Part shown: positions 12,755 to 60,959 of the stretch, in pieces | How positions within the stretch are numbered: position 1 is the stretch's first letter | How the letters are laid out: every line of letters starts with the position of its first letter | From: Chrysomallon squamiferum | Lineage: Eukaryota > Animalia > Mollusca | Length of the DNA: 64,000 bases | Assembly: GCA_012295275.1 (NCBI GenBank) | Contig: CM022674.1 | Coordinates: forward strand, 4,960,001 to 5,024,000 | Direction of reading: 5' to 3' | The notes under the pieces: model-generated | What the model was told of the DNA's origin: nothing | What the model saw: the letters and a program-made list of their open reading frames with translations, nothing else | The model's database searches: none | Program-made: the position numbers and the translations under genes

Positions 12755-29693
<16,939 letters not shown>

Positions 29694-34251: not shown

Positions 34252-34878
34252 ATGTTTAAAAGAGATTTAGTGGTAAGTTTGTTCGTTGTTGTTTTTTTTT
34301 AATTTGTTTTTTTATTTCTTATTTTCTATAACCTGAATGTTTGTTGTGAAGCGTATTTTACTAGCTAAACGCTTTACAATTAGTGCATATTTCGACTGTA
34401 AACATACGAGATGATGTCAGTTAAGACTGATTCAGAATGTATTTTGTCGTCCATTTTTTGAAACTGTTAAACAGGCATCTTCAAACAACTAAGTATTTTC
34501 ATTTATTAACAGATAATAGAAAATATTTCTATATTATTAGCCAAATATAAGTAAAATTAAAATTTTACAAAGGAAATTCACTGTAAGTACACCTCGAGAA
34601 AGTTAATTTTAAATAAATATAAATAAACAAACGTATTTGGTTAAACAGTTCTGCTGCAATTTAACCGAAATTTTTTAATCGCAAAATTTGCCAATTAGAA
34701 AATTTTCTATCTGTCTACCTGTTTCTAGTTCAAACCTATATTCTATGACAGAATGTGAATCCTATAATATGTCCTATTCGGTTTATGATTATTAGCATAT
34801 AAACCATTTTGCCCTTAATCGAAATGAATGGACACCGAAATCACGGTATCGAATATTCTCTTTCGTGTTTCCTTATAA

Positions 34879-34915
<37 letters not shown>

Positions 34916-34935
34916 TAAATAAATAAATAATAAAA

Positions 34936-34976
<41 letters not shown>

Positions 34977-35433
34977 AAATTAAATAAAATTAAAAATATA
35001 AAAAAAAAATTAAAATTGAAAATAAATAAATAACATAGCATAACAGTCATAGGACAAATACAGCAGTAATTACCTAAAGAATCAAACGACGAAACATAAT
35101 GTCAAAATATATTAATATTCATTATTTATTGCCATCAACAACTTCAACTAGCATCATCTCCTTTCTGTTAAAATTTAATAATGCAATAACCTTCCCATTG
35201 TAGTATAATTTATGAAACACGGATACCCGTCTTTGTAATATCCTATCTTTCCGTCTGTAAATTGTCGTCTGCTGAATCTGTGAAGAACATGATTATTAGA
35301 GTCGACTCATCTTTTAAGCCGGCGTTATCGAGTTAAATATTTATAGTAAATCGCAAGATTAATTGTCTTGAAAGCGCCAGGTACAGGAAATCAATCAGAA
35401 ATGATATTAACGTTCGCGAGAATTAACTTTGAT

Positions 35434-35530
<97 letters not shown>

Positions 35531-35794
35531 ATCTCTCTCTCTATCTCTTTATCTCTCTCTCTATCTATCTCTCTGTCTATCTCTCTCTGTCTGTCTCTCT
35601 CTCTGTCTATCTCTTTCTCTGTCCATCAATACTCTCTCTCTATCTCTCTCTGTCTCTCTCTCTATCTATCTCTCTCTCTGTCTATCTCTCTCTGTCTATA
35701 TCTCTCTCTATCTATCTCTCTCTCTGTCTATCTCTCTCTGACTGTCTATCTATCTATCTCTCTGTCTATTTCTCTCTGTCTGTCTATCTATCTA

Positions 35795-35884
<90 letters not shown>

Positions 35885-36285
35885 GAATGATCGTAGTCGT
35901 AAAATAAACGACTCTGTCAACGACATCAGTGACGAGGACCGCTGGGAAGGTGACCAAGATGAAGAATCTGAAGGTGAAACCAGATACGAAGAACACGTTC
36001 CTCGGTAGAATCCATTATTTCTGTTGTTGTTGTCTTCGAAGTCGTTGTTGTTGTTGTTTCATTATTGTTATAATAACAATTATTATTATTACTGTTGCTG
36101 TTGTTATTACTACTATTGTTTTGTTATTAATAGTATAGTTATTGTTATTGTTGTTGTTGTTGTTGTTGTTATAGTTATATAGGTGATTGTATTAACTTTA
36201 AAACGACTGTATCAAAAATAAATAAATAATAAAAATACCACTTTCATAACAGTAATAAAATAATTCATTATATTGCAAGCACTAC

Positions 36286-36332
<47 letters not shown>

Positions 36333-36708
36333 CAATAATAATAATAATAATAATACCTACAATTAGTATACAACACCAGCAATGATAAAAATAACAACTA
36401 GCAATAGTAATAGATCCATTCATCAATCAATAAATAACAAAACCAACACCATTTCAACAAAATACTACTACCACTACTACTACTATTACTACTACTACTA
36501 TTACTACTACTACTACTACTAACAATACTACTACTACTACTACCACTACTATTACTACTATACTACTAACAATACTACTACTACTACTACCACTACTATT
36601 ACTACTATACTACTAACAATACTACTACTACTACTACTAACAATACTACTACTACTACTACTAACAATACTACTACTACTACTACCACTACTACTACTAC
36701 TACTACTA

Positions 36709-36753
<45 letters not shown>

Positions 36754-37470
36754 AACTAACAATACTACTACCACAACTACTACTACTACTAACAATACTA
36801 CTACTACTACTAATAATAATAATAATAATAATGTTACAGGCGAACAAGAGAAGTGCACCCTATAACAGGAAACGACTACATCCCCCAGAAGGCCAAGCTG
36901 TACCGCGTGTACCGGAACAACGACAAGCTGTTTAAGGGACTTCCGGTCTCCTACAGCCGGCAACAGTTCCCAACCATCGAGTCGTTCACCACGTGGTTAA
37001 ATGAGAAGATTTCCACGCCGACGGGTAAAAACGACGTCATCGCTTTTGCTTAAATTCTGATAATCAGATTTCATTTCTAACGTAGTTCACTGATATTTCA
37101 GTTTAGTTTTAGTTTTTATACCAATGTTGTCCACTGAATTTTGATATGGTTTAGAAAAATTTAGTTTTTAAAACTGCAATAAAAAAAAAATATATATATA
37201 TATATATATAATACAAATATGTAATAAATGCCAAACCACACGTGCCTGTTTTCACATGAGTTAATCGTGTATGTCTCTACCTGACATTTTTTTATAGTTC
37301 AGAATTAACGCCTGAATTTCGTGAAGGTGTACAACCACATCACTGTTATTACGTTTTTACTGTAGTTACTGTGGTAATGAGACCAGCAGTAACAGCAGAA
37401 TCGACAGTTTAGTGGTGGTAGTCGGTATCATGTCATCGTAGCAATACCAGTAGTTATAAGATATTAATAT

Positions 37471-37558
<88 letters not shown>

Positions 37559-38269
37559 CGCACGCACGCACACATACATTTCGAATATAGACACCCTATA
37601 ATAATAGTAATAATAGAAATTATACAGTAATAACGTATTTGCATATGTAATTTTTGGTTCGTGCTAAAATCATCTTGTAGGTGTCCGGTTCCTGTTTTCC
37701 TGGCCGTCTGGATCCGAAATAAAGAGCAACGACGACTTGGATGAACAGGACTCCCGCATCCTCGTCGTGTCCTCCGTCAAAACACTCAACAAAAACATCG
37801 ACTACGGAGACGCCCTTGCTCACCCGGAATCGGTTGAACACGTGAACAGTCGGCCAAATCCGACGCAGGCCGAACCCGAGCCGGAACTCTATTCCGAGAG
37901 CGACCGATACTTTACGATTACCAGCAACCTTAAACGAAAGAGCCATGGCTTGTTCGTGCTGAATCCCGATTCGAGAGATACGTTCGCCGATCTGATGAGG
38001 GATATCATAACGAGGCTCGACATTCCTCGGCCACCAATAAAAAGTCTTCATTACAGCAAGTCACCGTACACAAAGGTATGTTTAAATAGATTCAGTTTAA
38101 ATAAACTGTGTTCAGGTTTGGATCGAAAATTTCAGAGGAAAAATGCATGTAACAGCATTATTTTGTAGTGAAATTACAACTGTATACAACAGTCTCGAAG
38201 ACGCTAGAATTTTTAAATTTTTTATTTTTATATATTTTCTTACATATCTATTTCTTCTGCTTCTACGTA

Positions 38270-38306
<37 letters not shown>

Positions 38307-39139
38307 TGTATTTGTATTTAAACTGATTTTATTTTCAGTTATATGAACGAAAACAAATAATAAAAAAAACCGCAGTTTTTTCTTTCCTTTTTGCATCTAT
38401 TTCTTTTTAACTATCCTTTCGTTGTAGTTATATGATAATATTAAATGCTATTAATATACATTAAAAAATTTATTTTACTTTATTTTATATTATTTTTTTT
38501 TTAATTTATTATTTTTATTCTTTTAATTCTTTTTTATTATTTTTTTTTTTTTCTGTCTACATCTTTTCGTTTGTTTTGTTTGTTTATATATACAAAAATA
38601 AAATCAACAACTTCTGTTCGATTCTCTCTCTATGAATCATAATTTCTTATAGGTTGTAGATAATCTATATCGAATACTGTCAACAAAATTAACTAATGGG
38701 AGATTGCTGTTATGACATCAAAGCACGTTTACATGGTCAAAGATGCATATTTAGTTCAAAACTGCGTTGCATCTAAGACATCGATAAACATAATTATATC
38801 AGTTATTGAAATTCTTTATATTCATGTATTGTTTTTAAGCACTGTGCATTGTCAACTTCAGCTATACGAAGCAAACGAGTTTTTATTTTTCAGTATTTAT
38901 ATAAATATATGTTTTCGTTATACCTAATAATCAAATGTTTTTACATTTATGTGCAACGATATAATTATCAGGTTTTTTAGTTTATCAGTATAATTATGTA
39001 TCTCTACAAAGAAAGCGGCAGACAAAAATCTGTAAAATTTATAAACTTTTATGTATTTCTTTGTTAAAAAAAAAATAATAATAAAATTCATAAAAAAATA
39101 ATAAAATAAATTTAAATAGATAAATAGATTTTTCTAGTG

Positions 39140-39184
<45 letters not shown>

Positions 39185-39607
39185 TCTAAAATTATAAAAG
39201 TGTGGCGATAATTATAATTATTGTTGAATTGTATAGTTCAAATATAAAAGGGACATAACTTTTGTGAACTATTCTATTTTAAAATGAAAAAAAAAAAACA
39301 AAAGAAAAATTACGATTGGTTCAAATAAATATAAGCACAATTTTGTTATTATAACTGAAAGGAAATATTTCATTTTTAGTCCTTTTCTTTATTTTAATTT
39401 TATTATATTTATTCTTTAGTAGTAGTAGTAGTTAGTTTTAGTTTTTTATTTTTTTTTTTTTTTTTTATTTTTGTTCAGGTTTTGAGCCTTCACCAGTTGT
39501 TCAGAGATTTTCAAAATGGCGACGGATTCTTAGCTTGTGGAGAGGAGATGATTCCCAGAGAGCTAACACAAAACAATTTATACAAGGTCAGAACATCTGC
39601 AGATTAA
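34252..39607 (+). CDS. Tandem doublecortin (DCX)-domain protein resembling the N-terminus of DCX-EMAP/EML-like proteins
   Basis: Exons 34252-34272, 35886-36004, 36840-37024, 37681-38075, 39479-39586, all phase-compatible. The 3' end either reads through to TAA 39607 or splices to 41870-41905 (DRNYDSTTAVS*). DCX1: KAKLYRVYRNNDKLFKG...ESFTTWLNEKISTPTGVRFLFSWPSG; DCX2: RYFTITSN...LNPDSRDTFADLMRDI...VLSLHQLFRDFQNGDGFLACGEE. Confidence 0.8.
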
Positions 39608-40659: not shown

Positions 40660-41492
40660 GATGTAGTGGCAGTCCTCCTATTGAAATAACATTTTCTAGC
40701 CTCTCTGTATATTTATTTGATTTAGCTAGCGGCAGTCCACCTACTAAAATAACACATCTGTATAACGTAAGCTCATATATCATTGAGTGGCTGTCCTACT
40801 AAAACAATACATTTGTATACCGTAAACTCATATATCAGTGAGCGGCAGTCCTCCTACTAAAACAATACATTTGTATACCGTAAACTCATATATCAGTGAG
40901 CGGCAGTCCTCCTACTAAAACAATTCATTTGTATACCGTAAACTCATATATCAATGAGCGGCACTCCTCCTTCTAAAACAACGCATTTGTATAACGTGAA
41001 CAACATATATTGAGCGGCAGTATAAAACAACATATTTGTAACTAAACTTGATATATCAGTGAGCGGCAGTCCTCCTACTAAAACAACATATTTGTATACC
41101 GTAAACTCATATATCAGTGAGCGGCAGTCCTCCTACTAAAACAATACATTTGTATACCGTAAACTCATATATCAGTGAGCGGCAGTCCTCCTACTAAAAC
41201 AATTCATTTGTATACCGTAAACTCATATATCAATGAGCGGCACTCCTCCTTCTAAAACAACGCATTTGTATAACGTGAGCTCATATATCAATGAGCGGCA
41301 GTCCTCCTACTAAAACAACATATTTGTATACCGTAAACTTGATATATCAGTGAGCGACAGTCCTCCTACTAAAACAACATATTTGTATACCGTAAACTCA
41401 TATATCAGTGAACGGCAGTCTTCCTACTAAAACAACACATTTGTATACTGTAAACTCATATATTAATGAGCGGCAGTCCTCTTACTAAAACA
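40660..41492. repeat. ~58 bp minisatellite (~13-14 copies) with higher-order repetition
   Basis: Unit gagcggcagtcctcctactaaaacaatacatttgtataccgtaaactcatatatcagt. The variant series at ~40820-41000 recurs at ~41100-41280. Confidence 0.92.
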
Positions 41493-43265
41493 ATGACAAT
41501 GACTTTGTTCTCATAAACTGTAGGATTATAGTACAGAGAAGAATGTATTACAACAATGTGAAAACAAATTTAAAATGCACATGCGTGGAAGTTAAACAAG
41601 ACGGTTATCTATTTCAAACTAACAGATCAGTGTGTGGCAGTCCCCTTCTAAAGCAGTGCAGTGTTATCTATATATAGCTCTTATTAAACTGGTTATAACA
41701 TAATAAACTTACCGTTTTGTTTCACAAAACACCAGCTGTATCGACTCAGTCAATAACTGGTCGCCATTTATCACGAAGCAGCGTCCATAATAGAAGAAAC
41801 CTATTCGATAAAGTCATTAAATTGATCAACAACGTTGATGCCGTTTTAGCTAGAAAGTTTTTGTTTCAGGACAGAAATTATGATTCGACTACGGCAGTCT
41901 CATAAAGTCAGTCATTGCGGCTGCCTTTTAACTTAAATTTAAATAAATAAATAAATAAATAAAAATTTACGGAGAGAAATTTTTACAGGACAGAAAGTCA
42001 GACCCAAATAAGCCATTCTTCCAACTTGATTCATAAATCTGACTGTTCTAGTTTTATATTCTTATCCAGTAAATGTAACAAAAGATGCTTTAAATTATTC
42101 ATTTATTTTACTACAGTGACCTCTGTTATATAATAATAATAAATAAAAAGAAAAAGGAAAAAAAAGAAAGTTGAATTACAGTTTCGTGTTACAGAACAAT
42201 AATCATAACTCATCCATGAGCAGTTCCATAAATTTGATTCATATGGCTTCATGTTTTAGTTAGAATTATTTTAATTACTTGTTTGAATCAGGATTATATT
42301 TATAATGACCATCTTATATATAAAAAAAAAAAATCATTTTATTTTATTTTATGATTATTATTATTATTTTCATGCCATGGTTATTTGTAGATTGCTATCA
42401 ACATGTTTTTATATTTTAATGCAACTAATACTTTACATAATTTCTTCTGTTTTTCTTATTTCAGTGATGCTACGATATCTACGTCGAATAGTTTCAACTG
42501 TCAGGACAAAAAAAAAAAAACACAAAAACAATAACTGAGAGAAAAAAAAAACTGTCTTCTAAATCGAATTCAAAGAAGACAAGAGTTGAAACTTAATTTT
42601 ATAATTTAATTTTTTGATACAAGCTGATGTAATCATTTCGACATTAAACTTATTATAATAAAAACAAACAAACCCAGAAGGACAGCCCAGAGGAAAAAAA
42701 ATAAAATATTATAATTGTCTGCTTAAAAAAAGACGAGATTAAGAAGGGAACCGTTTGTAAAGACATCTTTCCTCACTGATTTTAACTTAATCATATTTTA
42801 ATATTACGCAGAAGATATGCAGTCCTTCAAAATTACATTTTACACATACTCGTTACAACGAAAACAAATAAATAAATAAATTATTATACGTTTCCAGAAT
42901 TAATATAAATTTTATTTTATTATTATTATTTGCACTTCTTTCCGATGTATCTGCAAATAACGCTTCAGTGTGTATTTCCTTTCCATTTTTCACTTTCAGC
43001 GATTTAGTATATAAATAAATAAACAAATAAATAAATAAATAAATAATAAAATATTAACAATGTGATCCACATTCATGAAAGAATGAATGAATATTTAACA
43101 ACAGTCCAGCACGAGAAATATATCGTCCACATTCACGAGTGATCATCGTTCAAAATATACAGACAGAAGGCAACAGAAGGTTTCAAACTAGGTTTCATAC
43201 CACTTCCAGGTGAACATCGACCAGATAAAGCCAAGCCTTTTACAGATCTAAAATGTCCGTAAATA

Positions 43266-44461: not shown

Positions 44462-44805
44462 GCACGGATGCACAGAGTACATAAGTCATATAAGACTAAG
44501 GATAGGAAACTACAGCTCTTTGATAATTAAAGAAATGTTTTAAGAAATATATTCACATCCAAAGAAAACCGAAAAATCATTATTAAAAATAGAATAAAGT
44601 ATTGCTAATTAAATGTTTCTAAAACTATATACGAATTCCGATATTGAAGTTGGGCTTTTTATAACACCGATTAAACATCAATTAAAAATCGATAAAAAAA
44701 AACAACAACTGCTGAATCAATTTAAATTTGGTCAGGTTTGCCTTCAACCTGACATCTTATCGCAGCTGTAATCAGAAGAGGATTAAAAATATTTAGTAAT
44801 ATAAT

Positions 44806-44849
<44 letters not shown>

Positions 44850-45260
44850 CGTGGGAAAGACTTTGCAATTATTAAAAATAATTACTGGTGGAATTCAGCT
44901 GAACATTGAACTTTATGTCGCAATTTGCACCGCTAATAAATGAACTTGGGGGCCCTGTTTGAGTCGATAAACGCTGGTTCAGATATTAAACTTCTCCTTT
45001 GAATGAATTCGTCATTAAAATAAACTTAATGTTCATTCAGAAATTTTAAGAACTGGATTTAAAATAATAGTAATTAAAAAAATATATATTAAAAAATTAA
45101 AAAATTCAAGAGTACAAATATGTCGTTTGCCAACAAAGTTCACAATTAATGGAGTCGTCTAATTATAGTTATCTCCCTTGACCATTAACTATCGTTACTA
45201 TGAAATGTAGATGTTTTTCTAAGATTTTCATAACATTAACTCTAAATGTAAGAAATTGAC

Positions 45261-47591
45261 ATGGATTCCAAGCTGTTGACTTTGTTACAGATATCTGATA
45301 GTGGTAAGTGTTTTATAACAGTTATTTTATTTTACATTTTACGAGAAATAATCACAACAGCTGGCTATTTGACCGATGTCGAAATAATTGTAATATCGCA
45401 CAAATCCTATACCGATTGAGTCTATAATTAAATAATAATAATAAAAACAAAAATTGAATAATAATAATAAATAATAATGTACATTAAACATTATTGTTTA
45501 AAAAAGTAAAACGTAAATTTAGAACGTAAACAATTTATCACAAGCGAATAAAGATAACATTATAGAAATGTATATGTACGATTTTCTCTTTTATCAAGGG
45601 GTTTCAGTGTTTTTTTATTAGCAGAAGAGGGAAATATTATTTGCTCCAGTTAATTCCAGATTTAAGGTTGAACAAATAAATATCTTAACAAAGACAATTA
45701 CTAGAGCTTTTAACAATATAATAATAGTAATAAAAAAAAAAAGATATATTAATTTCTCTTTATTTTGGTGTATGTGTGTGTATAAAATGACTGTCTTTAT
45801 TATTATAAATTATTTTATGATTTTTTTTTTATTATTTTTAATCTAGCTTTCCCAAGTGGAGGTTTTTCTCACAGTCTTGGTTTAGAATCTGCCATACAGC
45901 ATGGTCTCGTTAAAACAAAAGGTAACTTTAAAAAACAAATTATTAATAAATAAATAATATTTCCACAAAGACATGTTCATTTCTTATGCCAGTTCAGTTA
46001 TTAAAGTATCATTAGTTCATTTCTAATTAACTGTTTCTCATATATCAAGGACTAGTAATAGAATTTTTTATTTTTTTTATTATTATTTTTTTTTTTTATT
46101 TTATTTTATTATTTTTTTTTATATATATATATATCCAGATTTAAGGTCTGTTAGAGTGTATGTGTGTGTGGGCGCATGTTTTGAAATTTGTAAAATATTC
46201 TTTCATTGCATTGTAGCTGCATTTTGAGGTGTAAATGCTTATTTTTTATTAGAAAATGTTAAATATATACAGACACACAAACACACACACATAATTACAA
46301 AAGTTACTGTAGATATGCACATATGTATTGAAACAAGTTTTATTGGATTTACAAAAAATAATCTCAGCTTCATTTATTTGTCACTGCTAATTAACTCTTG
46401 ATAACTTGATAAATTGTGTTGTTATAAGTATTTACAGTCTTGATGTTGAATTTTTATTTCAGACAGTCTTCAATGTTTTATAACAGGATCAATGGAAAAT
46501 GCAGGTAAATAAGTTAATTACAAGCTTCTTAGAATAAAATACTAAATGCAATATTATTAATAAAAGACAGTAGAACAAGATATAGTTTAACTAGCTAACA
46601 GTAGCCATAAGCATGTGACAATTGATGATGACGATGATGATGATGATGATAAACAAACAAACAAACAAACAAAAGAACATTGACAGTTAAAATAGTTAAT
46701 TGATGACTATGATGTTCTTTGAATAGTTAAATAGCTACCATCATCTATGACATAAAATATCATCAATCTGTCAATGCATTCTTTTAATTAGTATAGTACT
46801 TGAATGACTGGCTATCATAATAATGATAAACAGTTGCAGAGCTGAATTTACTGTAAATTATGAAAATGATGCTAGCATAATATGAAAGCCATAAAAAAAA
46901 AAAAAAAAAAAAAAGCATTATGAAGGAGTATAGCTCAAATTTCCATATTTTGGTTATCACTCATCTAAGCATGAAATAGTCATATTTATGTTACAATGGT
47001 TTGCATAATGACTGCTCATAATTTTATTGATCTAAAATTTAAAGGGCAGGATTGACAGAAACTATATATTCTAAACAAAGTTCTTCTTTAAAATAATGTA
47101 CATTCAGTCGATATTCTGAATAGAATTTTCATTGATTCAAACAAATAATGTTTAAAATTTTCAGGTTCATTTGGTTTACCTTTTGTTCATGATGCTTACA
47201 ATGAAGGTCATGAAGTGTCAAAGGTCATGGCTCTTGATGACCTTTGTGAAGCTTGCCTTTCCAATCATATTGCTAAGAAAGCAAGCATGCGACAGGTAGA
47301 TGTTTTTAATGTAGTAACACAAAATAACTGGGCTGGAGAAATAATTAGTTCTGAATCTAATAACCATCAGTCAAATGATATTAATAATGAACTGGACAAA
47401 TAAATGATTTTGAACATTATTTTTAACAATAAAATCTGGCAATTATCACAATTTATTTATAACTGGTATGCAAGGTTAAAAATCTAAATAAACTGTAGTT
47501 CAGTATATTGTAAGGAAAGAAATATTTTAGTCTTGGCTTCTGAAAAACCATTTATGTGTTATTAGTAAATAATAATTCTTTTTTTTCTTTA

Positions 47592-47646
<55 letters not shown>

Positions 47647-49926
47647 GTGATAATAATAATGGTAAATGTAACAGCCAGTGATATTCAGGATAAGCAATTA
47701 TTTCTTTAATCATTTACTCCAGAATGGTTTTCGCAGTGGATCACATGCATTACAGATGATCAAACCAAATTACGTTACTCCTGTCTCTGAAATAAATGAA
47801 AATTCAATTGACAGTAAACTCTCAGTCTCAGGTTTTGTTTTCTAAGGGCAAATCTTTCCTTGATTCTGCAAGCCATATTTTCGGCAATGATGAAATTCAG
47901 ACCCTGTCCTCCAACTTGATTCATCGTCATTTTGCCGTTGTCTTTGGTGCTGCCTATCGCCTCCTGGGCTTCAGCGTGGATGATGTTCTGACATCATTCA
48001 TGTTCAATGTGTTGAGGACACTGACATCCAGTGCTGTTAGACTGGACAGGATTGGACCAATAGAGGTGTGTAAAAAAAAAAAAATGAAATATAACTAAAA
48101 TTTAGTTTTCAATTCTGACCAGAGTTCCATGTAATGGTATTGGTTGGACCAGTAGAGATGTACAAAAAATTAAATATATTTAAAATTTAGTTTTTAATTT
48201 TGACCACAGTTCCACTGGTATTTTATGGACCAATAAAGGTAAGTGAAAAAAAAAAAAATGAAAAAAAGTGAAATGCCCATCTATAAGAAGAAATTAACAT
48301 ATCCTTATAATATCTGAATGGTCTTTACAAATTATAAATAATAAAAAAAAATTCATGAAAAATACAGTTAACTAATTTTTATTAATAGAAAAAAAAATAC
48401 ATATTTTAATTTTTAAAAATGTATAATAATTTTGTTTTACAAAGATTAATAAAGGTAGTGAATGTAGATTATTATTATTAACCATGCTCATAAAGGTGAT
48501 TACATAGTAGGTGAGACTGATGTGTAGAAAATTTTACTAAAACCAGTTCAGGACATAAGTTAAGGTTTTTTTTAGCTAAAAACAAACCAGATAGAAAAAT
48601 ATACACACAAACATACAATTCTTTTAAATCTATAATAAAGATTTATTTTAAAACACTGATACGCTAACCATAGTAAAATCTATATTTCTTCTTTTGCTTT
48701 AACAATATTATTTATATAAATTATTAAATTGTTGCTTGCAACATCACAGACATGTATTTGTACTCAAATATTGTTATTATCCATCTGTTTCATTTCATAC
48801 CTTTATTTGCCTTCTGTCATCAGAATCTCTTGTATCGTCTGATAATTTATATTTGCATTACTGAATTACTTGCCATTTTTAATTTCAACTGATCACTTTT
48901 ATATCTCTCTTACCTTCTGTGTACATACTACTGACTGTTTATATAGAGATGACATCCATATTGAATAAGTGTAATATGTAACTGTTGTCATTGACTAATG
49001 ATAGATATCCAATGTTGCCAACAGCAACAACTTCATTTTCTTCATAAATAATTTGTGGGTATTTCAGTACTTGTCATGTCCTGAAAATTTATCATATTTT
49101 TTTTTTTTTTTTTTTTTTTTATTTTATTTTTTATTTTTATTTTATTCATTTTGTTTTATTTTTTATTTTTTTTATTTCAATTTTTTATTTTTTTTAATTT
49201 TAATTTAATTTTATTTTTACTTAGTTTTATTTTATTTTTTTTCAGTTTATTTGATTTAATTTTTAAATTTATTAATTTTGTTATTTATATATCAATTTTA
49301 TTTTATTTTATTTACATATTTATTTTTATTATTATTATTATAATATATATATATATGTAGGTAATTTTTTGTAATTTATTTTCATCTTCTTTTAAAACTG
49401 AATTTAACAATTTAAATTATTTTGTACATTAATTGTTCACTACCTTTTGACACAATCTGTTACTTATTAAACCTAAATTTATATACAAAGTTGATCACAG
49501 TGCGAAATAATGTCCAGTATACACAGAACAAATTTCACAAATCATGTGCTAGAATGCTGAAATCTAATTGCCACCTTTACTGTACAATTCTGTGACTACT
49601 TTTCTTATCTTGATATAATAATGAGAGTTGTATCATTGTATCATTTTATTTTTGAACATTTAATTATTTTACACCCCTACTCATAAATGATATTTTTTTT
49701 CTGTCTTTTTTCAGATGTACTTTTTGTTTTTTCTTATTATCGTTGTTGTTGTTGTTGCTGATAATGCTACTGTTGTTGTTTATTTTTGTTATTTATTATT
49801 GTTATTATTTCAGGCACAACAACTCCAATATTCATTACAGACACTGATACCAGATATAATAGAAAGGTAATTAAAATACATTAACTAGATCGTAAAATTA
49901 TATTGTAATCTTGCAGAACTGTACAT

Positions 49927-50006
<80 letters not shown>

Positions 50007-50418
50007 CTCTCTCTCATTAACTTTCTGTTTCTCTCACATTAACTCTCTTTTTCTCTATGTGTGTGCGTGTTTGTATATGTGTTTTTATTTAGTTTATATT
50101 TACATTATTATTTTTATAAATAAATAGGTTCATTTTACTGAAGTCTTTATTTTTAAAATAAGAAATAATTCAATATCTAAGAGACACACTATCTCTGAAT
50201 TTTTGTCTTATTTCATTTAACAATATCTTTGAACCATCATCAAACGAACAATTTATTTTTAATTTACGTCAACTCAAATTAATTTATCAGTGACAAAATT
50301 CTTTCTGTTATCCAGAAATCGCGAGAAGCTGGCTCCTGATGCTGCCATTACTTTCCCTTTGATGGAGACTGTCCAGTGTGCACATGGACTTTTGTTTTCA
50401 AAACTTTTCTTTTCTTGA
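45261..50418 (+). CDS. ureF: Urease accessory protein F (nickel-urease maturation), 7 exons, ~221 aa
   Basis: Exons 45261-45303, 45847-45921, 46463-46504, 47165-47295, 47847-48065, 49814-49866, 50316-50418 (666 nt, open, all GT-AG). Diagnostic motifs: LLQISDSAFPSGGFSHSLGLESA, NHIAKKASMRQGKSFL, HFAVVFG, SSAVRLDRIGPIEAQ, and C-terminal HGLLFSKLFFS*. Confidence 0.92.
48051..48260 (+). repeat. ~85-90 bp tandem triplication containing the ureF exon 5 donor
   Basis: ggaccaatagag|gtgtg (donor after 48065), ggaccagtagag.atgta (~48146), ggaccaataaag|gtaagt (GT at 48239). The first two are each followed by A-run, aaatttagtttt and tgacca.agttcca. Confidence 0.8.
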
Positions 50419-50998
50419 CAGTGATCATGTTTTAGGATTTGTTATTCAATTTTCTGTGTTGTATAATTTGAATAAAAGATAAAAAGTTGTAAAAGTGATT
50501 AAATAATACAGTAATTTTTATTTTTTTATTTTCATAACACTTATTCAGATTGATGTCATATTCAAAGTGTTTAAAGATATAAAACTGATTAAATATTAAC
50601 ATATTCTGTTTCATTTTCATAAAATAGTTTCAGTTTATTAAAATATATTAAACACCAATAGTTTTTGAAATTTTGTTGGTTATTTTTACTTATTTTTTTT
50701 TTTTTATTTTTTTATATTTTTTTGATCTGTTAAAATGTTTGTATTCTTAAAGCTTTCATCAATATATCCACTTCATCCTGCCTTGTAAATAAATTATAAT
50801 ATTCACCAAAATATATTTATAATTATATTATTTTTAAAATAAGAAATAATTCGTCAGTGTATCCACTTCTGGAAACCTGCCTCAAATAGGTCATTCATTT
50901 TTGTAAATAATTTGTAATATTTACTGAAATATATATATATATATAATTATATGTTTTATATAAACAAATGCACACACTGTAGAATTAATATACAAAAT

Positions 50999-51067
<69 letters not shown>

Positions 51068-51871
51068 CAAAAAAAACACTAATAGATAAACGAATGTAAA
51101 GATATATATAAACCATAGTATATATAGATTCACTGATATACATTTTAGAGATTATAAACAGTAACACAGTAACTGACATTAATACTGTCTATACATCATA
51201 CAAAGTATTCTGTCGCAGATAAGAGGAGAGTGAGAGACATACATACATAAGCAAGCATAAAAACCGTAAATAATGTAAATATGCACCACGATAACACCAT
51301 CTACGAACTACACACACACACACACGTACATATGTAAATGCGTTTGCACATAGCTCTAAACGACAAACATGATTTGAAAACGTGCTGATATAAACACAGA
51401 AACGAACAGTAATTATACCATTATATTGATTCAAATTATAAACAAATATAATCGGTGCATTGCATTTGTAACAATCACAAACGGACTTCTGAACTCGAAA
51501 AGTCAAGGATAATGAATAAATTAAGTAAGTAATATTCAAATGATTATATACGGCATTATGATGACAACATTTATTATTATTCGATAGATAATTTAAAATA
51601 GTAAAAACAACAGTCTATATTTATTTGATCTAGTAAAGAATTACGAAAAATGAAAATAATTTTCTTACCTTAAATACAAGAATATCCAACACAATGTAAT
51701 CCACGTGACAATAACAAGGGATGTCCGTCGTGAATGACGTATTTCAATTATTGACGTAATTGCCTTTCGGAGCTTTTCGGATGATATCGTTTTTCTTCGT
51801 GACTTTGACTAAATAATAATATTAATAATAATAATAGTAATGGTAATAATGCAGCAATAGAACAACAGCAA

Positions 51872-52719: not shown

Positions 52720-53437
52720 TTGTATTATTATTATTATTATTATCATTATTATTATTATCATTATTATTGTTATTATTATATCTCCAGGAGTGACCACTAA
52801 CCCCAGAGCTTTGTCAGAGCTTTGTCAGAGCTTTGTCCTGACGCATGAAAGATCACAGGTTCAACCCTTCTTTCAGCACTCAATCATCTATTTTTCCTCA
52901 GGATCACCGGAAAGTACCGGCAACTCGCTCACTCGCCCCAAACACCACATTATAGATGGCGCCACTTCTTGTAACTTAAAAAATCTTCCAAAATATAAAG
53001 AGTAAAATCTTCAAATAATAAATAAGATAAAAATATATAAAACATAAAAATGTCTTGGTAGGAGCAAAACTGTCATAACCTGATTATTAATTTCTGATAA
53101 TTAAGATCAAACTGTTAAAGAGAATTGGCAAATGAAATTTTTGCGACTGTCAGCTAGGTGGCCATTACTGAAATTTCTGGGGAATTAAAAACCGTAGCAC
53201 CGGTTCTAACCAGACGTTCGTCCATTATGTTTCACTCCCGTTCATAACCTGAATCACCCCCACTAAACCCGCCCTTTGACCGATAACACTAGATCACTGA
53301 TCTCACTTGTAGCAGAATAAAAACCTTAGTTCAGAATATTTTTATCAGTTAAACGTGCATGGGGCCAAAGTCGAACAAACAAACATTTTTGATTATTGCG
53401 CATTTAATGGACAAATTGAACGTTTTCGTTTTCTAAA

Positions 53438-54092
53438 ATGGAAAGCAATGGAGTTGTTTTTCCCGTTCTGGTTGTAACATTCTTTTTGTTATTTCATACA
53501 GGTTAGTACTTCGCATAGTTTTTTTTAAAGACGCTTTTGATTTTCTATTTCTTGCGTGTAGTGTATTTGTATGTGTCATATATGTATGTTTTTATATAAT
53601 GTATGTACGTATGTATGTGTGTGTGTGTTTGTGTACGTATAAATATATATATATATATATGTTGTTATGTAAACGTAGATAGATAGATGTATATGTACGT
53701 AGATAGATACAGATACAGATACACACATACGTTTATATATGTGTGAATGTGTGTATGATTATATATATATATATACGTATGCTATACACAGAGAAAAACA
53801 AACTATTTCATAATCTCCTCCTAACGATTATATATAAAGAAAAGACCTTTCCATATCGTGAATATAGCCTTTGATTAAGTAGTCGAGGAGATATTGCAAT
53901 AACGGGAAATACTGAATATTATTATTAGTAACAAAGACAATGAAGTGAAAACTTAGATATTTGTATTTTTATTGCTGTTACTCACATTGTCGTTGATTTC
54001 TGTAACTCTGTTTTTAGCCATTTCATAATACTGTAATCATCATAATAATTAATATTAGAATTCTCATCAGCATTATGTCCGTCATGATTATC

Positions 54093-54156
<64 letters not shown>

Positions 54157-55727
54157 GAATATATATAAATAGATTCAGAACTTTAGTCTAAATTATTAAT
54201 TATTGTTGCCCCCCCCACGATTAGAAGGAGGGTCGATTTCCCGTAGGGTGAGGCAGAATTATTTTCTGATGAACTTAGTATTTTTACGCTTGCCAGAACA
54301 AACTGCACGGAATCTGATTTCAAGAGTAAATGAGATTCTACAGACGTCGTAAATTTCGAGGGACATACTTTTCTTATATATATATATATATATATTTTTA
54401 TATATATATATATATATTTTTGTGGTTTTTTCCGTCTTTACAAAGGAAAGTCCACAGCTAAAGCAACCAAACTGTGTGAATAATTAGCCGAAATAAATTA
54501 GGTATAATAATAATGAAAAAGGATTTTAATTTACTTATATATTTATATAATTTATTACAAACAGTATCCTAGATATACGTTGGAGTTGTTGGATTTGTTT
54601 TAATTTTTTTTTTTTTGACTATGAACCAAACTTTGCTAATAATAAAGTATAACAATAATATAACGTATCAAAAAACTCTGAAGGGAGTGACAATTTTTCT
54701 TTCTTGCTCGACAAAACTCACTGTTCATGTCACGTCACGACGTAGATAAAATAACAAGAGAAATCTGCAAGACTGAAACAGAAAACAATTTCGATCATTT
54801 ACTGATTTATGTTGCCATTTAATAAAACGACATTTTTGAACTAAGAAAGCCAACATCTCAAAAACGATAAGGATTTTTCACGGACAATTGCATGCAGTGC
54901 TGTTTTTTTTTTTATTATTATTCGCATCATTAACAGATTATTATTATTATTATTGCCATTCTACGATTTATACAGCTACTAATCGAACTACAGCTGCTAT
55001 TATTATTATTATTATTTTAACTAACATAGGAGTGGCAGTCCTCTCATACTATTACATGCCTTCCTCACTTAACGACCTACTCGTTTAACGACCGCGTGGA
55101 CTTACAACCAGCTCTCCTCCTTGCACGGTATTTTACGCTGTTCGAGAATTTTTGTCGTATGAACGACAACTCGGGGTACTCAGTATCAAGCGTCTCAATT
55201 CTCATCACAGTGTCTCATCGTCACAGCCTCGTTCCAGGAGTTTTGTCAGTATTTACTACACGAGCGTTCACAATTTTCGAGACTACATATTTCGTCTGTA
55301 CATTTGTACTTTTATTGTGCATCCGTAATACGAGATTTTATCATTTTCTGTGATTATTATTATTTATTATTATTATTATTTTATTTATTTATTTATTTTA
55401 TTATTATTATATTTTTTATTATTATTATTATTTATCATTTTATATTTTTTTTTTATTATTTTTTTTTTTTTTTTTATATTTTTTATTTATTTTTGTTTTG
55501 TTTGTTTTTATTTTATTTTTAAAGTATTTTAAAAATTCTAAAAATGTTATAAACGGTTCAAAGGTGACATTAAAACATTATCTAAAGCTGGTCGACACAA
55601 ACCTACTAACAGTACAGTATGCTTGAAACATTACTAAGGAGTGGCCTTAACGACCTAACCTTTGGAATGGATCTCTGTGGGTATATGAGAGGACTGCCAC
55701 TCCTATGTCAGTTATAATAATAATAAT

Positions 55728-55784
<57 letters not shown>

Positions 55785-56217
55785 AATAAATATAAATATA
55801 ATATATTCTACAAATACATAGTGTTTTCCATATTTATTTATTTATATATTTATTAACATTCGCTCAAAATACTGCTAAAAAGTTAGTTACAGCCGGAAGA
55901 TGAGGGTTTTTCCTGCACCAAAAAAAATAAAATAAATAAATAAATAAATAGATTACCTGCCGTTATGCAGCTGCGATCCCAAGACATTCTAATTTTCACG
56001 TTGCTAAGATTGCTTGGACTTTCGTTTGTGTTACAGACAGAACTTCCGCTCTTGTTTGCTTTCACTGTTCCGACACGGGAGGTAACCCTGACTGCCAGAA
56101 TTATCTTGCCCTGACGAAATCCGCGCGAAATTTTGGCGACTTGACACGAAACTGCACCGTAGAAAAGTACTGCATGATCGAGAAATTCGTACAGAAAGGT
56201 TAGTTAATGATACTATT

Positions 56218-56255
<38 letters not shown>

Positions 56256-56763
56256 CCTATAATCTTTTTTTTAAACTTTTTAAAATGTTTTCTTTTTAAA
56301 TTTTTATTTACTTACTTATTTATTTATTTATTCATTCATTCATTCATTCATTCATTCATTCCATTTTTTAATTATTATTTTCCCTTTTTTCAGTTTTTAA
56401 ATTTTTTTAATTTAATTTTTTTAATTAATTTATTTATTTATTTATTTGTTTGTTTATTTTTATTTTTATTTTTATTTTTATTTGTTTATTTTTTATTTTT
56501 ATTTTTTTTTTATTTATTTATTTTTTTTTTTTTTTGCATTCAAGTATCCCCGTTTAAAAGTAGCGTTAATTTTATGTTTAGGTTCAGCAGCAAAAGACAG
56601 TGTTTGGGGGTTTATGTTAATTTTATATCAGCTTCAAGTTTTGAGATAGCGTCGAGGTCTGGTTTAGGGTTAAAATATAAGTTTAGAGATTCCATTAGAC
56701 AAAATTAGATTCTCTTTATAGACAGTGAGATACTGAAACGACTGTCTGCCTTTCTGTTGTTGT

Positions 56764-56799
<36 letters not shown>

Positions 56800-56850
56800 C
56801 TGGATGATTAAATATTTGGTTATAATTTTAATATTAATGCTTATCATCAA

Positions 56851-56901
<51 letters not shown>

Positions 56902-57509
56902 TGCTGTTGTTGTCGTTTGGTATTTTATTGTCATGATTAAAACAGAGACGACGTTAGCTAATAGTAGTAAACTGTTCTACTTTTTTTTTGTATTGATTAT
57001 CTAAAAGAAATGTTTAAGATACACTAGATACTAAAACAGTGTACGACAACCTTGCAACAGTCGTAGAACAAGCTGTGTCTGCGACAGTGCATTGACCTCC
57101 ACGTGCAGTAAGAACAATTTATCACTTCACCTATGACGCAACAGACGGCCATTTTAGTCTCGCTAACAAAGACTATATTCATTCTTTTTTCCTTACATAC
57201 TGACGTGTATATTTATTTACTTATAAACTGCTTTATGAAATATTTATTTGGTTGTTGAAATTACTTTTTTTAAACTTTTTTTTTTTTTTTTGGCTTATCC
57301 ATTTTAGCCACTCATTAATCATTTATTTAATTGTGTGTGTGTTTATTTGTAGTATTTATTTATAAATATTGTTTGTGTGTTTGTATGTTGTTTGTTTATT
57401 TGCGTGCTTGCTTGTTTCTGTAATTTATTTACGTATTTATTTATTTATTTATTTATTTATTTATTAGATTGTTTGTTTGTATTATTTATTAATTTGTTTA
57501 TTTATTTGT

Positions 57510-57540
<31 letters not shown>

Positions 57541-57837
57541 TATTGTTTATTTATTTACTTTACAGGCAGCGTCAACAGTTTCATCCGGGACTGTACGAAC
57601 AACCAAAATGATAGTTACTCTGCCGGAAAGCCAGGACGATTGAAATACCTCAAACCAGACAACGCCACTGTCTGCACATTTGATCCCAGCAGTATGGACC
57701 AGATCTGCATTTCTCTGTGTACTGAAGATTTGTGTAACGGCCCGTCAGGAGCAGAAAGTTTATTATTTTGTGGAGAAATGTTAAAAGTGTTGCTGTTTTC
57801 GTGGTTTTTAATATACGGATTAGGCTTTGAGTTTTAA
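53438..57837 (+). CDS. Ly6/uPAR three-finger (quiver/sleepless-like) GPI-anchored protein, paralog 1 (~165 aa)
   Basis: Exons 53438-53501 (signal MESNGVVFPVLVVTFFLLFHT), 56037-56198 (LVCFHC...DCQ...NCTVEKYCMIEKF), 57566-57837 (SFIRDC...VCT...ICISLCTEDLCNGPSG plus hydrophobic tail). Phase-1 introns, 10 Cys in the domain, terminal C-x4-CN motif. Confidence 0.85.
55018..55714. mobile_element. ~700 bp non-autonomous TIR element (MITE) in intron 1 of Ly6 paralog 1
   Basis: Perfect 25 bp inverted repeat acataggagtggcagtcctctcata (55024-55048) / tatgagaggactgccactcctatgt (55684-55708), extendable to ~31 bp with one mismatch. Internal direct repeat cttaacgaccta near both ends. No transposase ORF. 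Confidence 0.75.
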
Positions 57838-57903
57838 TTGTATTTTATTTATTAATTTTTATTTTTATTTTATTTTATTTTTTTTATTTTTATTTTTTTT
57901 TTT

Positions 57904-57940
<37 letters not shown>

Positions 57941-58099
57941 ACAACATTTATTAATTTATTTATTTATTCATGTTTCGTTTTTTGTGGAATAGAAATTCCT
58001 TGTACAAATTTATGACTTCGTATAACCCCAGATTAAAAGTGACTGAAGCCATTAACAAAAACATTTTTTATTATTTTTCGTTATTATTATTATTATTAC

Positions 58100-58133
<34 letters not shown>

Positions 58134-58280
58134 TTTTTTTTTTTTTTTTTTATTATTATTTACGCTCGCTATGTATATAGGCGGGAGATAGGGACAGATA
58201 AGATATGTTTCGATATATAAATAAGTAATATTTATTCAAATATGAATATTTTAGAAATAAGTAAAATCAAATAAAAATAA

Positions 58281-58331
<51 letters not shown>

Positions 58332-59014
58332 CCAAAAAATATATTATTATATTTTTAAGAAAAAATTAATGTACAATTTGAATGTTATAATAATAATAAA
58401 AAAATAAAAATTTATTTTGAAGCTCAATGAAGTTCTCATTCGTGTTTTGTTTTTTGCTGTTGTTGTTGTTGTTGTTGTTTTAATTTATTTTTGATACGGG
58501 GTGGGGTTACCGCATATTTGCAGACCCCCCCCCCACTTATAAATCATGATAAATGACGCAGATATACAAGCAAGTACAAAACACACCCAATCGCAAACAG
58601 ACGACAGTCAGTCAATGTACTGGTTACGATATTTTCGCCTGTCTGACTCTAGAACAGACGATGCTATGTTAACCGACCCATCACAATGGTTTAAATCCCA
58701 GAAGAAACATTAGAAGAAAAAAAAAAAAAGGGAGATAAATCAAGCGACAGGAAATACATTGCGGGTTGCCGGATGCACATTTGCGAAAATCGTCGTCGAT
58801 CATTTAAAAACAAAAGTACTTTAGAGCGAAGAAGCGGACATTTATATATATTTTTTTTTTTTTTTTTTTTTTAAGTATAGTAAATGTTGAATATCAGTCT
58901 ACTGGCTAATGACGGTAAAAGGCGGGTGATAGCAGATGATTAAATACCAGTGGACTCGAGGGATAGGACTCATTACCGGATCAGAATTCTATTACGATAC
59001 AAATTGATGTCGAA

Positions 59015-59431
59015 ATGATACTGCTTATTGTGTGTGTGTGTGCTGTAGTAACGGTTGCTAAAAGAGATTTTAGCTATGGTAGAAGGAAAAAATGGCTTTT
59101 GCTTGTTACAAGGTCTTTTTTTTTTTTTTTTTTTTTTGATTATATCAAGAAGTAAATTAGTTGGTAATAATGTTGTGAATAATCTACTTCTGATACACAC
59201 CACTCATACAGAAACACACACACACACACACACACATGCACACACACAAACATACCCACAGAGACAGAGAGAGAAGCAAACATACACATATGCAAGTACT
59301 TCCATACATCCATCCATACATACATAAACATATAAAAACACACATACTTACATTCATACATGTATGAATACATACATAAACATAAATACACACACAGAAA
59401 CACACACATCTCTATCTATGCAGACAGACAG

Positions 59432-59463
<32 letters not shown>

Positions 59464-60906
59464 GCATATGCACATACACACATATATATATACATACAAA
59501 TTAATAATATCCATCCATAAACACCATACACATAAAATGAAAGTCCTGAACTCTTTTATAAAGAAGACTAATATTCCTCCATATTTCAGTTCCTACTGCT
59601 CACGGGATCCGGTGCTACTACTGCCATGGGACTTCCGGTGTAGACAGCGCATGCGAGCAAAATATGAAAGGTCTTTTGGATTCAGCAAATGGCGATGGCG
59701 ATATGGCCAAAAACTGCACAGACTCTAAATACTGCATGATAGAAATATTCAAACAACCACTCAGTAAGTTCGTTTCTGGTTTAAATAAACAAACATTTCT
59801 TGTAGTTTACATTTAGTCAGTTTTACAATAACTTTTACAAACCTTTGAGTTTTAAATGACGGAGGAAAGCATTTTGTCGAAGCTGTGCTGTCACTGAAGT
59901 TATTTGAAATCTAGAGATGTTTGTGTACATTCATGTTAGTATTTGTATCTACCTCTTCTTTATTTAATTTATAAAACTAATTTTGTTCTCTGCACACACA
60001 CACACACAAATACATACACCTACAATATAACCAGATGTTTGCGAAACAAAGTCAAAAATCAAACAGTAATAACAATGGAACTGCAGTGCAGTAGTGGTTT
60101 TTCCTTCTATGACGTAATGACTTGCAGTTTGGTAGTAGTTGTAACAGGGGTACCATCGTCAACAGAATTAATAGCATAAACAGCAGCAAAATTTTAGTAG
60201 TAGTAGAAGTAACAGTAGCAGTAGTTGTAGTAGTAATAGTAGTAGTAGAAGTAACAGTAGCAGTAGTAGTATTAAAAATAGTAGTAATAGTAGAAGTAAC
60301 AGTAGCTGTAGTAGTAGTAATAATAGTAGTAGTAGTAGTAGTAACAGTACCAGTAGTAGTATTAAAAGTAATAGTAGTAGTAGTATAAGTAACAGTAGCA
60401 GTATTTTGTAGTAGTATTTTGTAGTAGTAATAGTAATAGTAGTAGTAGTAGCAGAAGTAGTAATAGTAGTAGTAGTAGTATAAGTAATAGTAGCAGTAGT
60501 AATAGTAATAGTAGTACTAGTAGTAGTAGTTGTAGTAGTAGAAGTAGTAGTAGTAGTAATAATAGTAGTAGAAGTAGTAGTAGTTGTTATTGTTCAATCA
60601 CAATATTTGGGTACAGTGCATTTGCGTGACAAACATCATGTTATTCCGAGACTGTCATATTAACCTTATTGTCGTTAGATACATTCTTTTAATCCTGTGT
60701 AATTAACCTGATACTTACCGTCCTCTGTGTTTTTATTTTTCTTACCATCTTAACTCATCCGTCACGGTTTTGGGGTTACTGCTGTGATCACGTGACAACT
60801 GAAATGAAATGTCCATTAATCTCCAAGATAAACGTGCTAGAAATATAACAAATGAAAAATAACCCAGCCTATTGTGTTGTGCGTGAGTGTGTACGTGTGT
60901 CTGTCT

Positions 60907-60959
<53 letters not shown>

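What the first reader, a model, noticed from the sequence alone, without database searches (positions are those of the whole stretch)
45261..50418. Complete intron-containing ureF in an animal genome: sign of a host-encoded nickel-urease activation system
Seen: a 7-exon open gene with the UreF signature motifs, including the conserved N-terminal DSxFPxGGFxHSxGLE and a C-terminal H..LFSKLFFS tail. It has six GT-AG introns in host-type microsatellite DNA and lies between metazoan genes, so bacterial contamination is unlikely. Established: UreF acts with UreD/UreH and the GTPase UreG to load Ni2+ into urease. The pathway is classic for bacteria, plants and fungi, absent from vertebrates, and only patchily reported and poorly characterised in invertebrates. 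Inference: this animal keeps its own urease, UreD and UreG elsewhere. Possible uses are nitrogen recycling, ammonium handling, or raising pH/carbonate for biomineralisation.
Basis: partly seen in the sequence, partly recalled or inferred. Interest (0 to 1): 0.85.

Follow-up and report, generated by a model that had tools for sequence, protein, structure and literature searches.

The report
Snail's own urease-maturation gene (ureF)
This animal, likely a snail, has an intact seven-exon gene for UreF, a helper protein predicted to load nickel into the animal's own urea-splitting enzyme; the same gene is already annotated in many invertebrates, so it is an ordinary family member, although published data on related vent snails hint that the pathway may recycle nitrogen in their symbiont organ.

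Summary
The gene is real: seven exons, six GT-AG introns, 221 codons. It aligns without gaps to RefSeq 'urease accessory protein F-like' of the snail Gigantopelta aegis (170/221 identical), and exon 5 passes Pfam UreF's cut-off. Orthologues occur in 21 named animal rows from seven phyla. They form one clade (100/99) that follows the animal tree, apart from one alveolate row, so this is an old inherited gene, not contamination or recent transfer. This genome is not held. In G. aegis the host annotation lists urease, UreF and UreG but no UreD row. Published tissue tables put urease, UreG, urea-making enzymes and ammonium transporters in the symbiont organ of two vent snails, with no urease term in the mantle list. 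That favours nitrogen recycling over biomineralisation. Splicing and expression in this animal were not tested. Animal urease has been in print since at least 2009, though one 2018 review denies it. Five scan look-ups found no earlier animal ureF note. Verdict: new member of a known family.

The parts
45261..45303 (+). ureF exon 1 (ATG; codons 1-15), phase-1 GT donor
   Evidence: 11/14 identical to G. aegis UreF
45847..45921 (+). ureF exon 2 (codons 15-40): the conserved N-terminal FPxGGFxHSxGLE loop
   Evidence: 23/25 identical; the only part of the window hit by bacterial UreF queries
46463..46504 (+). ureF exon 3 (codons 40-54)
   Evidence: 9/14 identical
47165..47295 (+). ureF exon 4 (codons 54-97)
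   Evidence: weak Pfam UreF hit E 0.042; 38/44 identical
47847..48065 (+). ureF exon 5 (codons 98-170), core of the Pfam UreF domain
   Evidence: PF01730 E 3e-11, 44.3 bits against cut-off 23.3; 54/73 identical
49814..49866 (+). ureF exon 6 (codons 171-188)
   Evidence: 13/17 identical
50316..50418 (+). ureF exon 7 (codons 188-221 and stop): the C-terminal H..LFSKLFFS tail
   Evidence: 22/34 identical
50471..50476 (+). first AATAAA after the stop, candidate polyadenylation signal (untested)

Best explanation
The locus is an intact, spliced, vertically inherited animal ureF gene whose product likely scaffolds nickel delivery from the GTPase UreG (through a predicted UreD partner) into the animal's own urease, which would split urea into ammonium and CO2 for nitrogen recycling or excretion. 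Shown here: the gene structure, the open frame, family membership by sequence, the UreF fold of the closest orthologue, and placement in an animal clade. Taken from H. pylori work: a UreF/UreD(H) dimer recruits a UreG dimer and opens a tunnel for Ni2+. Inferred: that the animal protein does the same; that urease and ureG sit elsewhere in this genome, as in G. aegis; and that the urea comes mainly from arginase/agmatinase and DUR3-type uptake.
For: Pfam UreF above cut-off. Gap-free 77% match to G. aegis UreF-like. The G. aegis orthologue matches H. pylori UreF end to end in sequence (E 9e-10). Its AlphaFold model (pLDDT 87) matches only UreF structures at E<=0.001 (10 of 10; TM 0.86 to 4HI0; next hit E 0.37). 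Near-invariant family positions are kept (D13, G98, H125, R162, G167, P202, F219), and the tunnel positions A41 and S47 of H. pylori (PMC10121161) stay small (S14, G20). The C-terminal tail needed for UreG recruitment (PMC3792862) is intact. Tree: 28 rows form one clade at 100/99 with cnidarians apart from the rest (92/92), a 13-row mollusc group (98/97), and caenogastropods, heterobranchs and limpets grouped as expected. The G. aegis host table has urease, UreF, UreG, arginase, two agmatinases and three DUR3-like transporters. Urease best hits are listed for Chrysomallon, Pomacea and Mizuhopecten. Urease in Aplysia and sea urchin (PMC2667541), Acropora (PMC3750612) and Riftia host tissue (PMC8789280).
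Against: No urease, ureG or ureD could be sought in this genome, and none is in the window. There is no UreD row in the G. aegis table. No Ni transporter was found in the two urease-bearing animals of PMC2667541, which left open whether these enzymes use Ni. Some H. pylori contacts differ: R179 (dimer salt bridge) maps to T146, A233 to T200, R250 to K217 (K in 24 of 27 animal-side rows, R in 119 of 134 others), and the tunnel acid E85 falls in an alignment gap. The structure was predicted for the orthologue, not for this protein. No RNA or enzyme data exist for this animal. One alveolate row (Vitrella) nests in the animal clade.
Confidence: 0.82

Rival explanations
1. The pathway mainly serves biomineralisation: urease raises pH and carbonate at the shell or statolith.
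For: Urease and nickel are linked to coral calcification in the literature (36 papers held all four terms, listing only). A role for urease in Aplysia statoconia is recalled, not checked.
Against: No urease, urea or ammonium term in the mantle-high list of Chrysomallon, where three carbonic anhydrases are listed. The only 'urease' row in 12 other supplements is UreG, in the oesophageal-gland list. Orthologues occur in animals without a calcified skeleton: Nematostella, ticks, mites, a tardigrade.
Confidence: 0.1
2. UreF is an orphan or has another job in this animal (urease lost, or matured without Ni or without UreD).
For: The genome could not be searched. No UreD row in G. aegis. K replaces R at the H. 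pylori R250 position and T replaces R179. Some invertebrates have lost urease (Osedax, PMC10192322).
Against: Frame, length and invariant residues are intact, and the end branch is short (0.11). The closest named relative keeps urease and UreG.
Confidence: 0.07
3. The gene is bacterial or symbiont contamination, or a recent horizontal transfer.
For: The Atlas's nearest clusters are mostly bacterial (that tool warns this is no sign of transfer). Vent-snail symbionts carry their own ure genes.
Against: Six spliceosomal introns. Sister to a snail orthologue at 100/99, inside an animal clade. Bacterial loci found with the orthologue are only 22-32% identical over long matches.
Confidence: 0.01

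Closest known systems
Gigantopelta aegis 'urease accessory protein F-like' (RefSeq XP_041377540.1; P0001)
   Same: Same length (221 aa), no gaps, 77% identical, sister in the tree.
   Different: 51 substitutions. Gene names on the G. aegis contig do not obviously match this window's neighbours (names only). Automatic annotation; no experiment found.
Invertebrate UreF orthologues (Aplysia XP_005109185.3, Nematostella XP_001637079.2, Holothuria KAJ8020800.1, Varroa XP_022643634.1, Galendromus XP_003738487.1, Rhipicephalus XP_037279296.1)
   Same: Pfam PF01730 (tested for Aplysia and Nematostella), one clade, shared tail of the type F-x-K-L/M-F-x-S.
   Different: The other named invertebrate rows listed are 43-53% identical. 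This protein and G. aegis end in LFFS where most animals have LFYS (F in 3, Y in 23 of 27).
Helicobacter pylori UreF (PDB 4HI0, 3SF5, 8HC1) and Klebsiella UreF (6JC4)
   Same: Fold (TM 0.86 for the orthologue's model), N-terminal D..FP.G.[FY].HS.GLE loop and C-terminal tail. Source of the mechanism (PMC3792862, PMC10121161).
   Different: About 20% identical; operon-encoded, without introns. R179, A233 and R250 are changed and E85 is not alignable in the animal protein.
Plant UreF (Hevea/Manihot cluster, P0156)
   Same: Falls with the animal clade in a 40-row group (99/90); same family.
   Different: A separate, well-supported clade; tail of the type LFSRLFCS.

Membership tests
UreF urease accessory protein (Pfam PF01730) | Profile match above the curated cut-off | tested here: met
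   Exon 5 alone scores 44.3 bits against 23.3; orthologue 90.7 bits. NCBIfam gave no hit.
UreF urease accessory protein (Pfam PF01730) | All-helical UreF fold | tested here: met
   Tested on the 77%-identical orthologue: 10 of 10 Foldseek hits at E<=0.001 are UreF chains.
UreF urease accessory protein (Pfam PF01730) | Conserved N-terminal loop and intact C-terminal tail that recruits UreG | tested here: met
   D13, F21, H23, H211, L218, F219, S221 are kept; K217 stands for R250. The importance of Y48/R250 is recalled (paper not held); that of the tail is from PMC3792862.
UreF urease accessory protein (Pfam PF01730) | Dimer-interface and Ni-tunnel residues of H. pylori UreF (R179/Y183; A41, S47, E85, A233) | tested here: inconclusive
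   S14, G20, F150 are compatible; T146 and T200 differ; E85 lies in a gap of a 20%-identity alignment.
Urease maturation system (urease + UreD/H + UreF + UreG) | Urease and ureG in the same genome | not testable with these tools
   No genome held; absent from the window. Present in G. aegis.
Urease maturation system (urease + UreD/H + UreF + UreG) | ureD/ureH in the same genome | not testable with these tools
   No genome held. No UreD, UreH or K03190 row in the G. aegis annotation; this is an annotation search, not a sequence search.
Urease maturation system (urease + UreD/H + UreF + UreG) | Binds UreD and UreG and is needed for Ni- and GTP-dependent urease activation | not testable with these tools
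   Needs biochemistry; no complex prediction was run.

The most novel reading that the evidence does not exclude
Chemosymbiotic vent snails use a host-encoded, nickel-matured urease to turn their own urea into ammonium inside the symbiont-housing oesophageal gland, so that the host meters fixed nitrogen to its bacteria. This ureF would be part of that circuit, in a nickel pathway kept from the cnidarian-bilaterian ancestor and possibly run with a diverged or missing UreD. The signal sits in two published supplements whose main texts never mention urease or urea: Gigantopelta urease 2.7-fold, agmatinases 5- and 17-fold and ammonium transporters up; Chrysomallon UreG 2.2-fold, arginase 4.2-fold, two DUR3 about 7-fold and an Rh ammonium transporter 382-fold. 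It assumes this animal is such a snail, which was not established.
Probability: 0.3. Interest if true: 0.6.

Novelty: new member of a known kind. Interest (0 to 1): 0.33.

Why it matters
The gene itself is routine: one more orthologue of an annotated invertebrate gene. It matters because it points at a gap between databases and reviews. A 2018 review says ureases are made 'not by animals' (PMC6077230), and a 2009 survey called the two animal ureases it found orphans of uncertain Ni use (PMC2667541). An intact UreF in seven animal phyla argues for a real, ancient Ni-loading pathway in animals, and none of my 10 paper searches returned a study of an animal UreF. That makes three questions testable: whether animal urease is a Ni enzyme, how Ni reaches it, and whether symbiotic snails use it to supply ammonium to their bacteria.

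Tried and rejected
1. Whole-genome search for urease, ureG and ureD: no genome held.
2. RNA support: the run search listed 4 runs, three RNA runs holding 0.05-0.10 of the words.
3. NCBIfam: 0 hits for 2 proteins.
4. Search for named animal ureases with a bacterial UreC stretch against proteins over 754 aa: none named among the 120 listed of 1,996 hits. Inconclusive, since algae, plants and fungi filled the list.
5. Metagenome scan with the orthologue: 24 loci, all distant matches, none animal-like. The alignment-based scan of bacterial genomes could not run.
6. First tree (FastTree, 164 rows) rooted on two distant rows put the root inside the animals and split them. I took this as long-branch attraction, dropped those two rows and rebuilt on 68 rows.
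7. Purine breakdown as the urea source, the textbook route (PMC13751858): no uricase, allantoinase or allantoicase row in the G. aegis table, so it is not favoured for that lineage; annotation search only.
8. Papers that did not help: PMC13255410 (algal symbionts), PMC11784444 (oyster microbes), PMC8722025 (gut microbes), PMC7435645. The Riftia supplement could not be read and may hold a lophotrochozoan urease survey.
9. dN/dS and intron-position comparison: no orthologue DNA was available.
10. No complex prediction was sent: a textbook pair would tend to pass by likeness to solved structures.
Full report
Observation. I read 44500-51500 and built the gene from the splice sites. The result is seven exons from ATG 45261 to TGA 50416-50418, six GT-AG introns of 449-1748 bp and 221 open codons (one search had the last junction one base off with the same product). 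Of five raw ORF pieces scanned, two hit Pfam UreF: exon 5 at E 3e-11 and 44.3 bits (cut-off 23.3), and exon 4 weakly. Exon 5 found 1 protein among 102 candidates, RefSeq 'urease accessory protein F-like' of Gigantopelta aegis. The spliced model matches it in 221 of 221 columns without a gap, 170 identical, and all seven exons are the top seven tblastn segments. Splicing rests on homology, not on RNA from this animal.

Context. The window is 23-35% GC and rich in microsatellites, also inside introns 2, 4, 5 and 6. Upstream pieces match a tyrosine kinase and EGF-Ca above cut-off, and Ig, GPS2 and CCDC84 below cut-off; 7 of 12 window pieces had no Pfam hit. The nearest neighbours look doublecortin-like (about 34-39.6 kb) and Ly6/quiver-like (about 53-62 kb); these two labels are recalled from the residue patterns and come from no call. 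Seventy-eight queries (73 ORFs from six bacterial ure loci and five eukaryotic ureases) hit only ureF exon 2, so no other urease gene lies in the window. No whole genome is held.

Family and fold. The orthologue matches three PDB sequences, all UreF, end to end (best E 9e-10). Its AlphaFold model (pLDDT 86.9) gives 10 Foldseek hits at E<=0.001, all UreF (TM 0.86 to the UreG-bound H. pylori chain), and the next hit is at E 0.37. The Atlas agrees. In H. pylori a UreF/UreH dimer recruits a UreG dimer through the UreF tail (PMC3792862, passages), and Ni passes through a tunnel in UreF and UreD (PMC10121161, passages). Mapped through the alignment, D40, H50, H244, L251 and S254 are identical, A41 and S47 stay small, and Y48 and Y183 become F. 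Against a perfect match, R179 becomes T, A233 becomes T, R250 becomes K (24 of 27 animal-side rows, against R in 119 of 134 others), and E85 cannot be aligned. One line of that script, labelled E54, was misnumbered and is not used.

Distribution and origin. The orthologue found 16 proteins among 184 candidates. A profile of them found 6,580 representatives at E<=0.001, of which 150 were listed. I looked up names for 27 distinct proteins. With the names this gives 21 named animal rows: cnidarians (4), molluscs (10), an annelid, a tardigrade, chelicerates (3), an echinoderm and a hemichordate. Eight of these clusters carry the name urease accessory protein F. Rows under 200 aa and a shorter Owenia isoform were dropped, leaving 164. 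FastTree rooted on two distant rows split the animals. I dropped those two and built IQ-TREE trees on 68 rows: 28 animal-side rows chosen after seeing the first tree, 18 hand-picked and 22 random others. The 28 form one clade (100/99; quick tree 99), with cnidarians (100/95) apart from the other 24 (92/92), a 13-row mollusc group (98/97), and the window sister to Gigantopelta (100/99, branches 0.11 and 0.18) (the bootstrap had not fully settled). The clade holds 5 unnamed rows and one alveolate, Vitrella. Only 1 of the 40 other rows is named (a plant cluster), so inheritance since the cnidarian-bilaterian ancestor is supported but the deeper origin is open. The animal is likely a gastropod close to Gigantopelta; that is an inference from the tree.

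Is the rest of the pathway there? This cannot be tested for this genome. For G. aegis the published host annotation (PMC7895826, supplement searched by term) has urease K01427, UreF K03188 and UreG K03189 but no UreD/K03190 row among 21,440 rows. It also has arginase, two agmatinases and three DUR3-like urea transporters, and no uricase, allantoinase or allantoicase row. Its synteny table lists urease best hits in Chrysomallon, Pomacea and Mizuhopecten, and a UreG best hit in Chrysomallon. My own attempt to list named animal ureases failed: 0 among 120 shown of 1,996.

What it is for. In G. aegis, 1,782 of 21,438 genes are high in the symbiont-housing oesophageal gland. They include urease (log2FC 1.44, FDR 0.046), two agmatinases (4.05, 2.30) and three ammonium transporters (9.17, 7.57, 1.68); UreF, UreG, arginase and DUR3 are not on the list. 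In Chrysomallon (PMC7142155) the same organ's list (1,664 rows) has UreG (2.2-fold, FDR 2e-13), arginase-1 (4.2), two DUR3 (7.7, 6.7) and two Rh transporters (382, 6.9), but neither urease itself nor agmatinase. Its mantle list has no urease, urea or ammonium term and three carbonic anhydrases. Neither main text contains 'urease' or 'urea'. This favours nitrogen handling over shell building. There are four limits. About 8% of G. aegis genes are on such a list. Different components are up in the two snails, and ureF in neither. The organ is of digestive origin. The G. aegis sulfur-oxidising symbiont has its own ureD, ureF and ureG. A precedent exists in Riftia, where host urease activity in the trophosome is proposed to release ammonium under host control (PMC8789280, passages). 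None of these data are from the window's animal.

What is known. Urease orthologues in Aplysia and sea urchin were reported in 2009, without Ni transporters and with doubt about the metal; that text does not mention accessory proteins (PMC2667541, passages). Acropora urease was listed in 2013 (PMC3750612, passages). A 2018 review still says ureases are not made by animals (PMC6077230, passages). Ten full-text searches returned no paper on an animal UreF; the library lacks most subscription journals, so this is not proof of absence. Older biochemical reports of urease in snails and other marine invertebrates are recalled, not checked. All papers were seen as term passages, plus the supplement rows cited; none was read whole. 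Five look-ups of the scan's own notes gave no animal ureF; one search gave two notes on eukaryote-like bacterial urease operons, which I did not test.

Verdict. The gene is real, intact and correctly named, and it is an orthologue of genes already annotated across invertebrates: a new member of a known kind. The best mechanism (0.82) is standard Ni maturation of a host urease serving nitrogen recycling or excretion. Interest is 0.33: low for the gene, raised by the unstudied state of animal Ni-urease maturation, the unresolved UreD, and the symbiont-organ lead (probability 0.3, interest 0.6 if true).

Noticed in passing
window 48040-48290: The end of exon 5 and the start of intron 5 are triplicated (about 85-bp unit). 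The third copy carries a consensus GTAAGT donor, stronger-looking than the real GTGTGT donor. An in-frame stop lies before it, so its use would truncate the protein.
   Followed up: partly
P0174 (Vitrella brassicaformis CEM00996.1): An alveolate UreF nests inside the animal clade, nearest a tick row, with an animal-type tail. It may be a transfer, a contamination or a long-branch artefact.
   Followed up: partly
PMC7895826 source data: The Chrysomallon best hits of urease and UreG have nearly consecutive gene ids on one scaffold (192_1.22 and 192_1.24), and a DUR3-like gene is on the same scaffold (192_3.4). This hints at physical linkage of urea genes in a snail; in G. aegis the two genes are on different contigs.
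   Followed up: partly
PMC7895826 Supplementary Data 1: The G. aegis host annotation has no row for UreD, uricase, allantoinase or allantoicase, while urease, UreF and UreG are present. These may be real losses or annotation gaps.
   Followed up: partly
alignment of 27 animal-side rows: Animal UreFs share a changed tail: F for Y at 215 (27 of 27) and K for the otherwise conserved R at 217 (24 of 27), plus N for Q at 52 (25 of 27). This could mark a co-evolved UreG interface.
   Followed up: partly
window 40728-41493: Tandem array of 13.4 copies of a 58-bp unit (86% matches) between the upstream gene and ureF.
   Followed up: no
window 52900-61800: Two tandem spliced genes with cysteine patterns like Ly6/three-finger (quiver/sleepless-like) proteins and hydrophobic C-termini. 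The label is recalled; no Pfam hit for the four pieces scanned.
   Followed up: partly
window 34250-39600: Spliced gene whose exons look doublecortin-like (recalled); no Pfam hit for the three pieces scanned.
   Followed up: partly
window 13700-29300 (minus strand): Multi-exon receptor tyrosine kinase with Ig and EGF-Ca domains; GPS2-like and CCDC84-like exons lie at the left end of the window.
   Followed up: partly
P0176, P0179, P0040, P0131: UreF is present in mites, ticks and a tardigrade, so the pathway is not confined to marine or calcifying animals.
   Followed up: no
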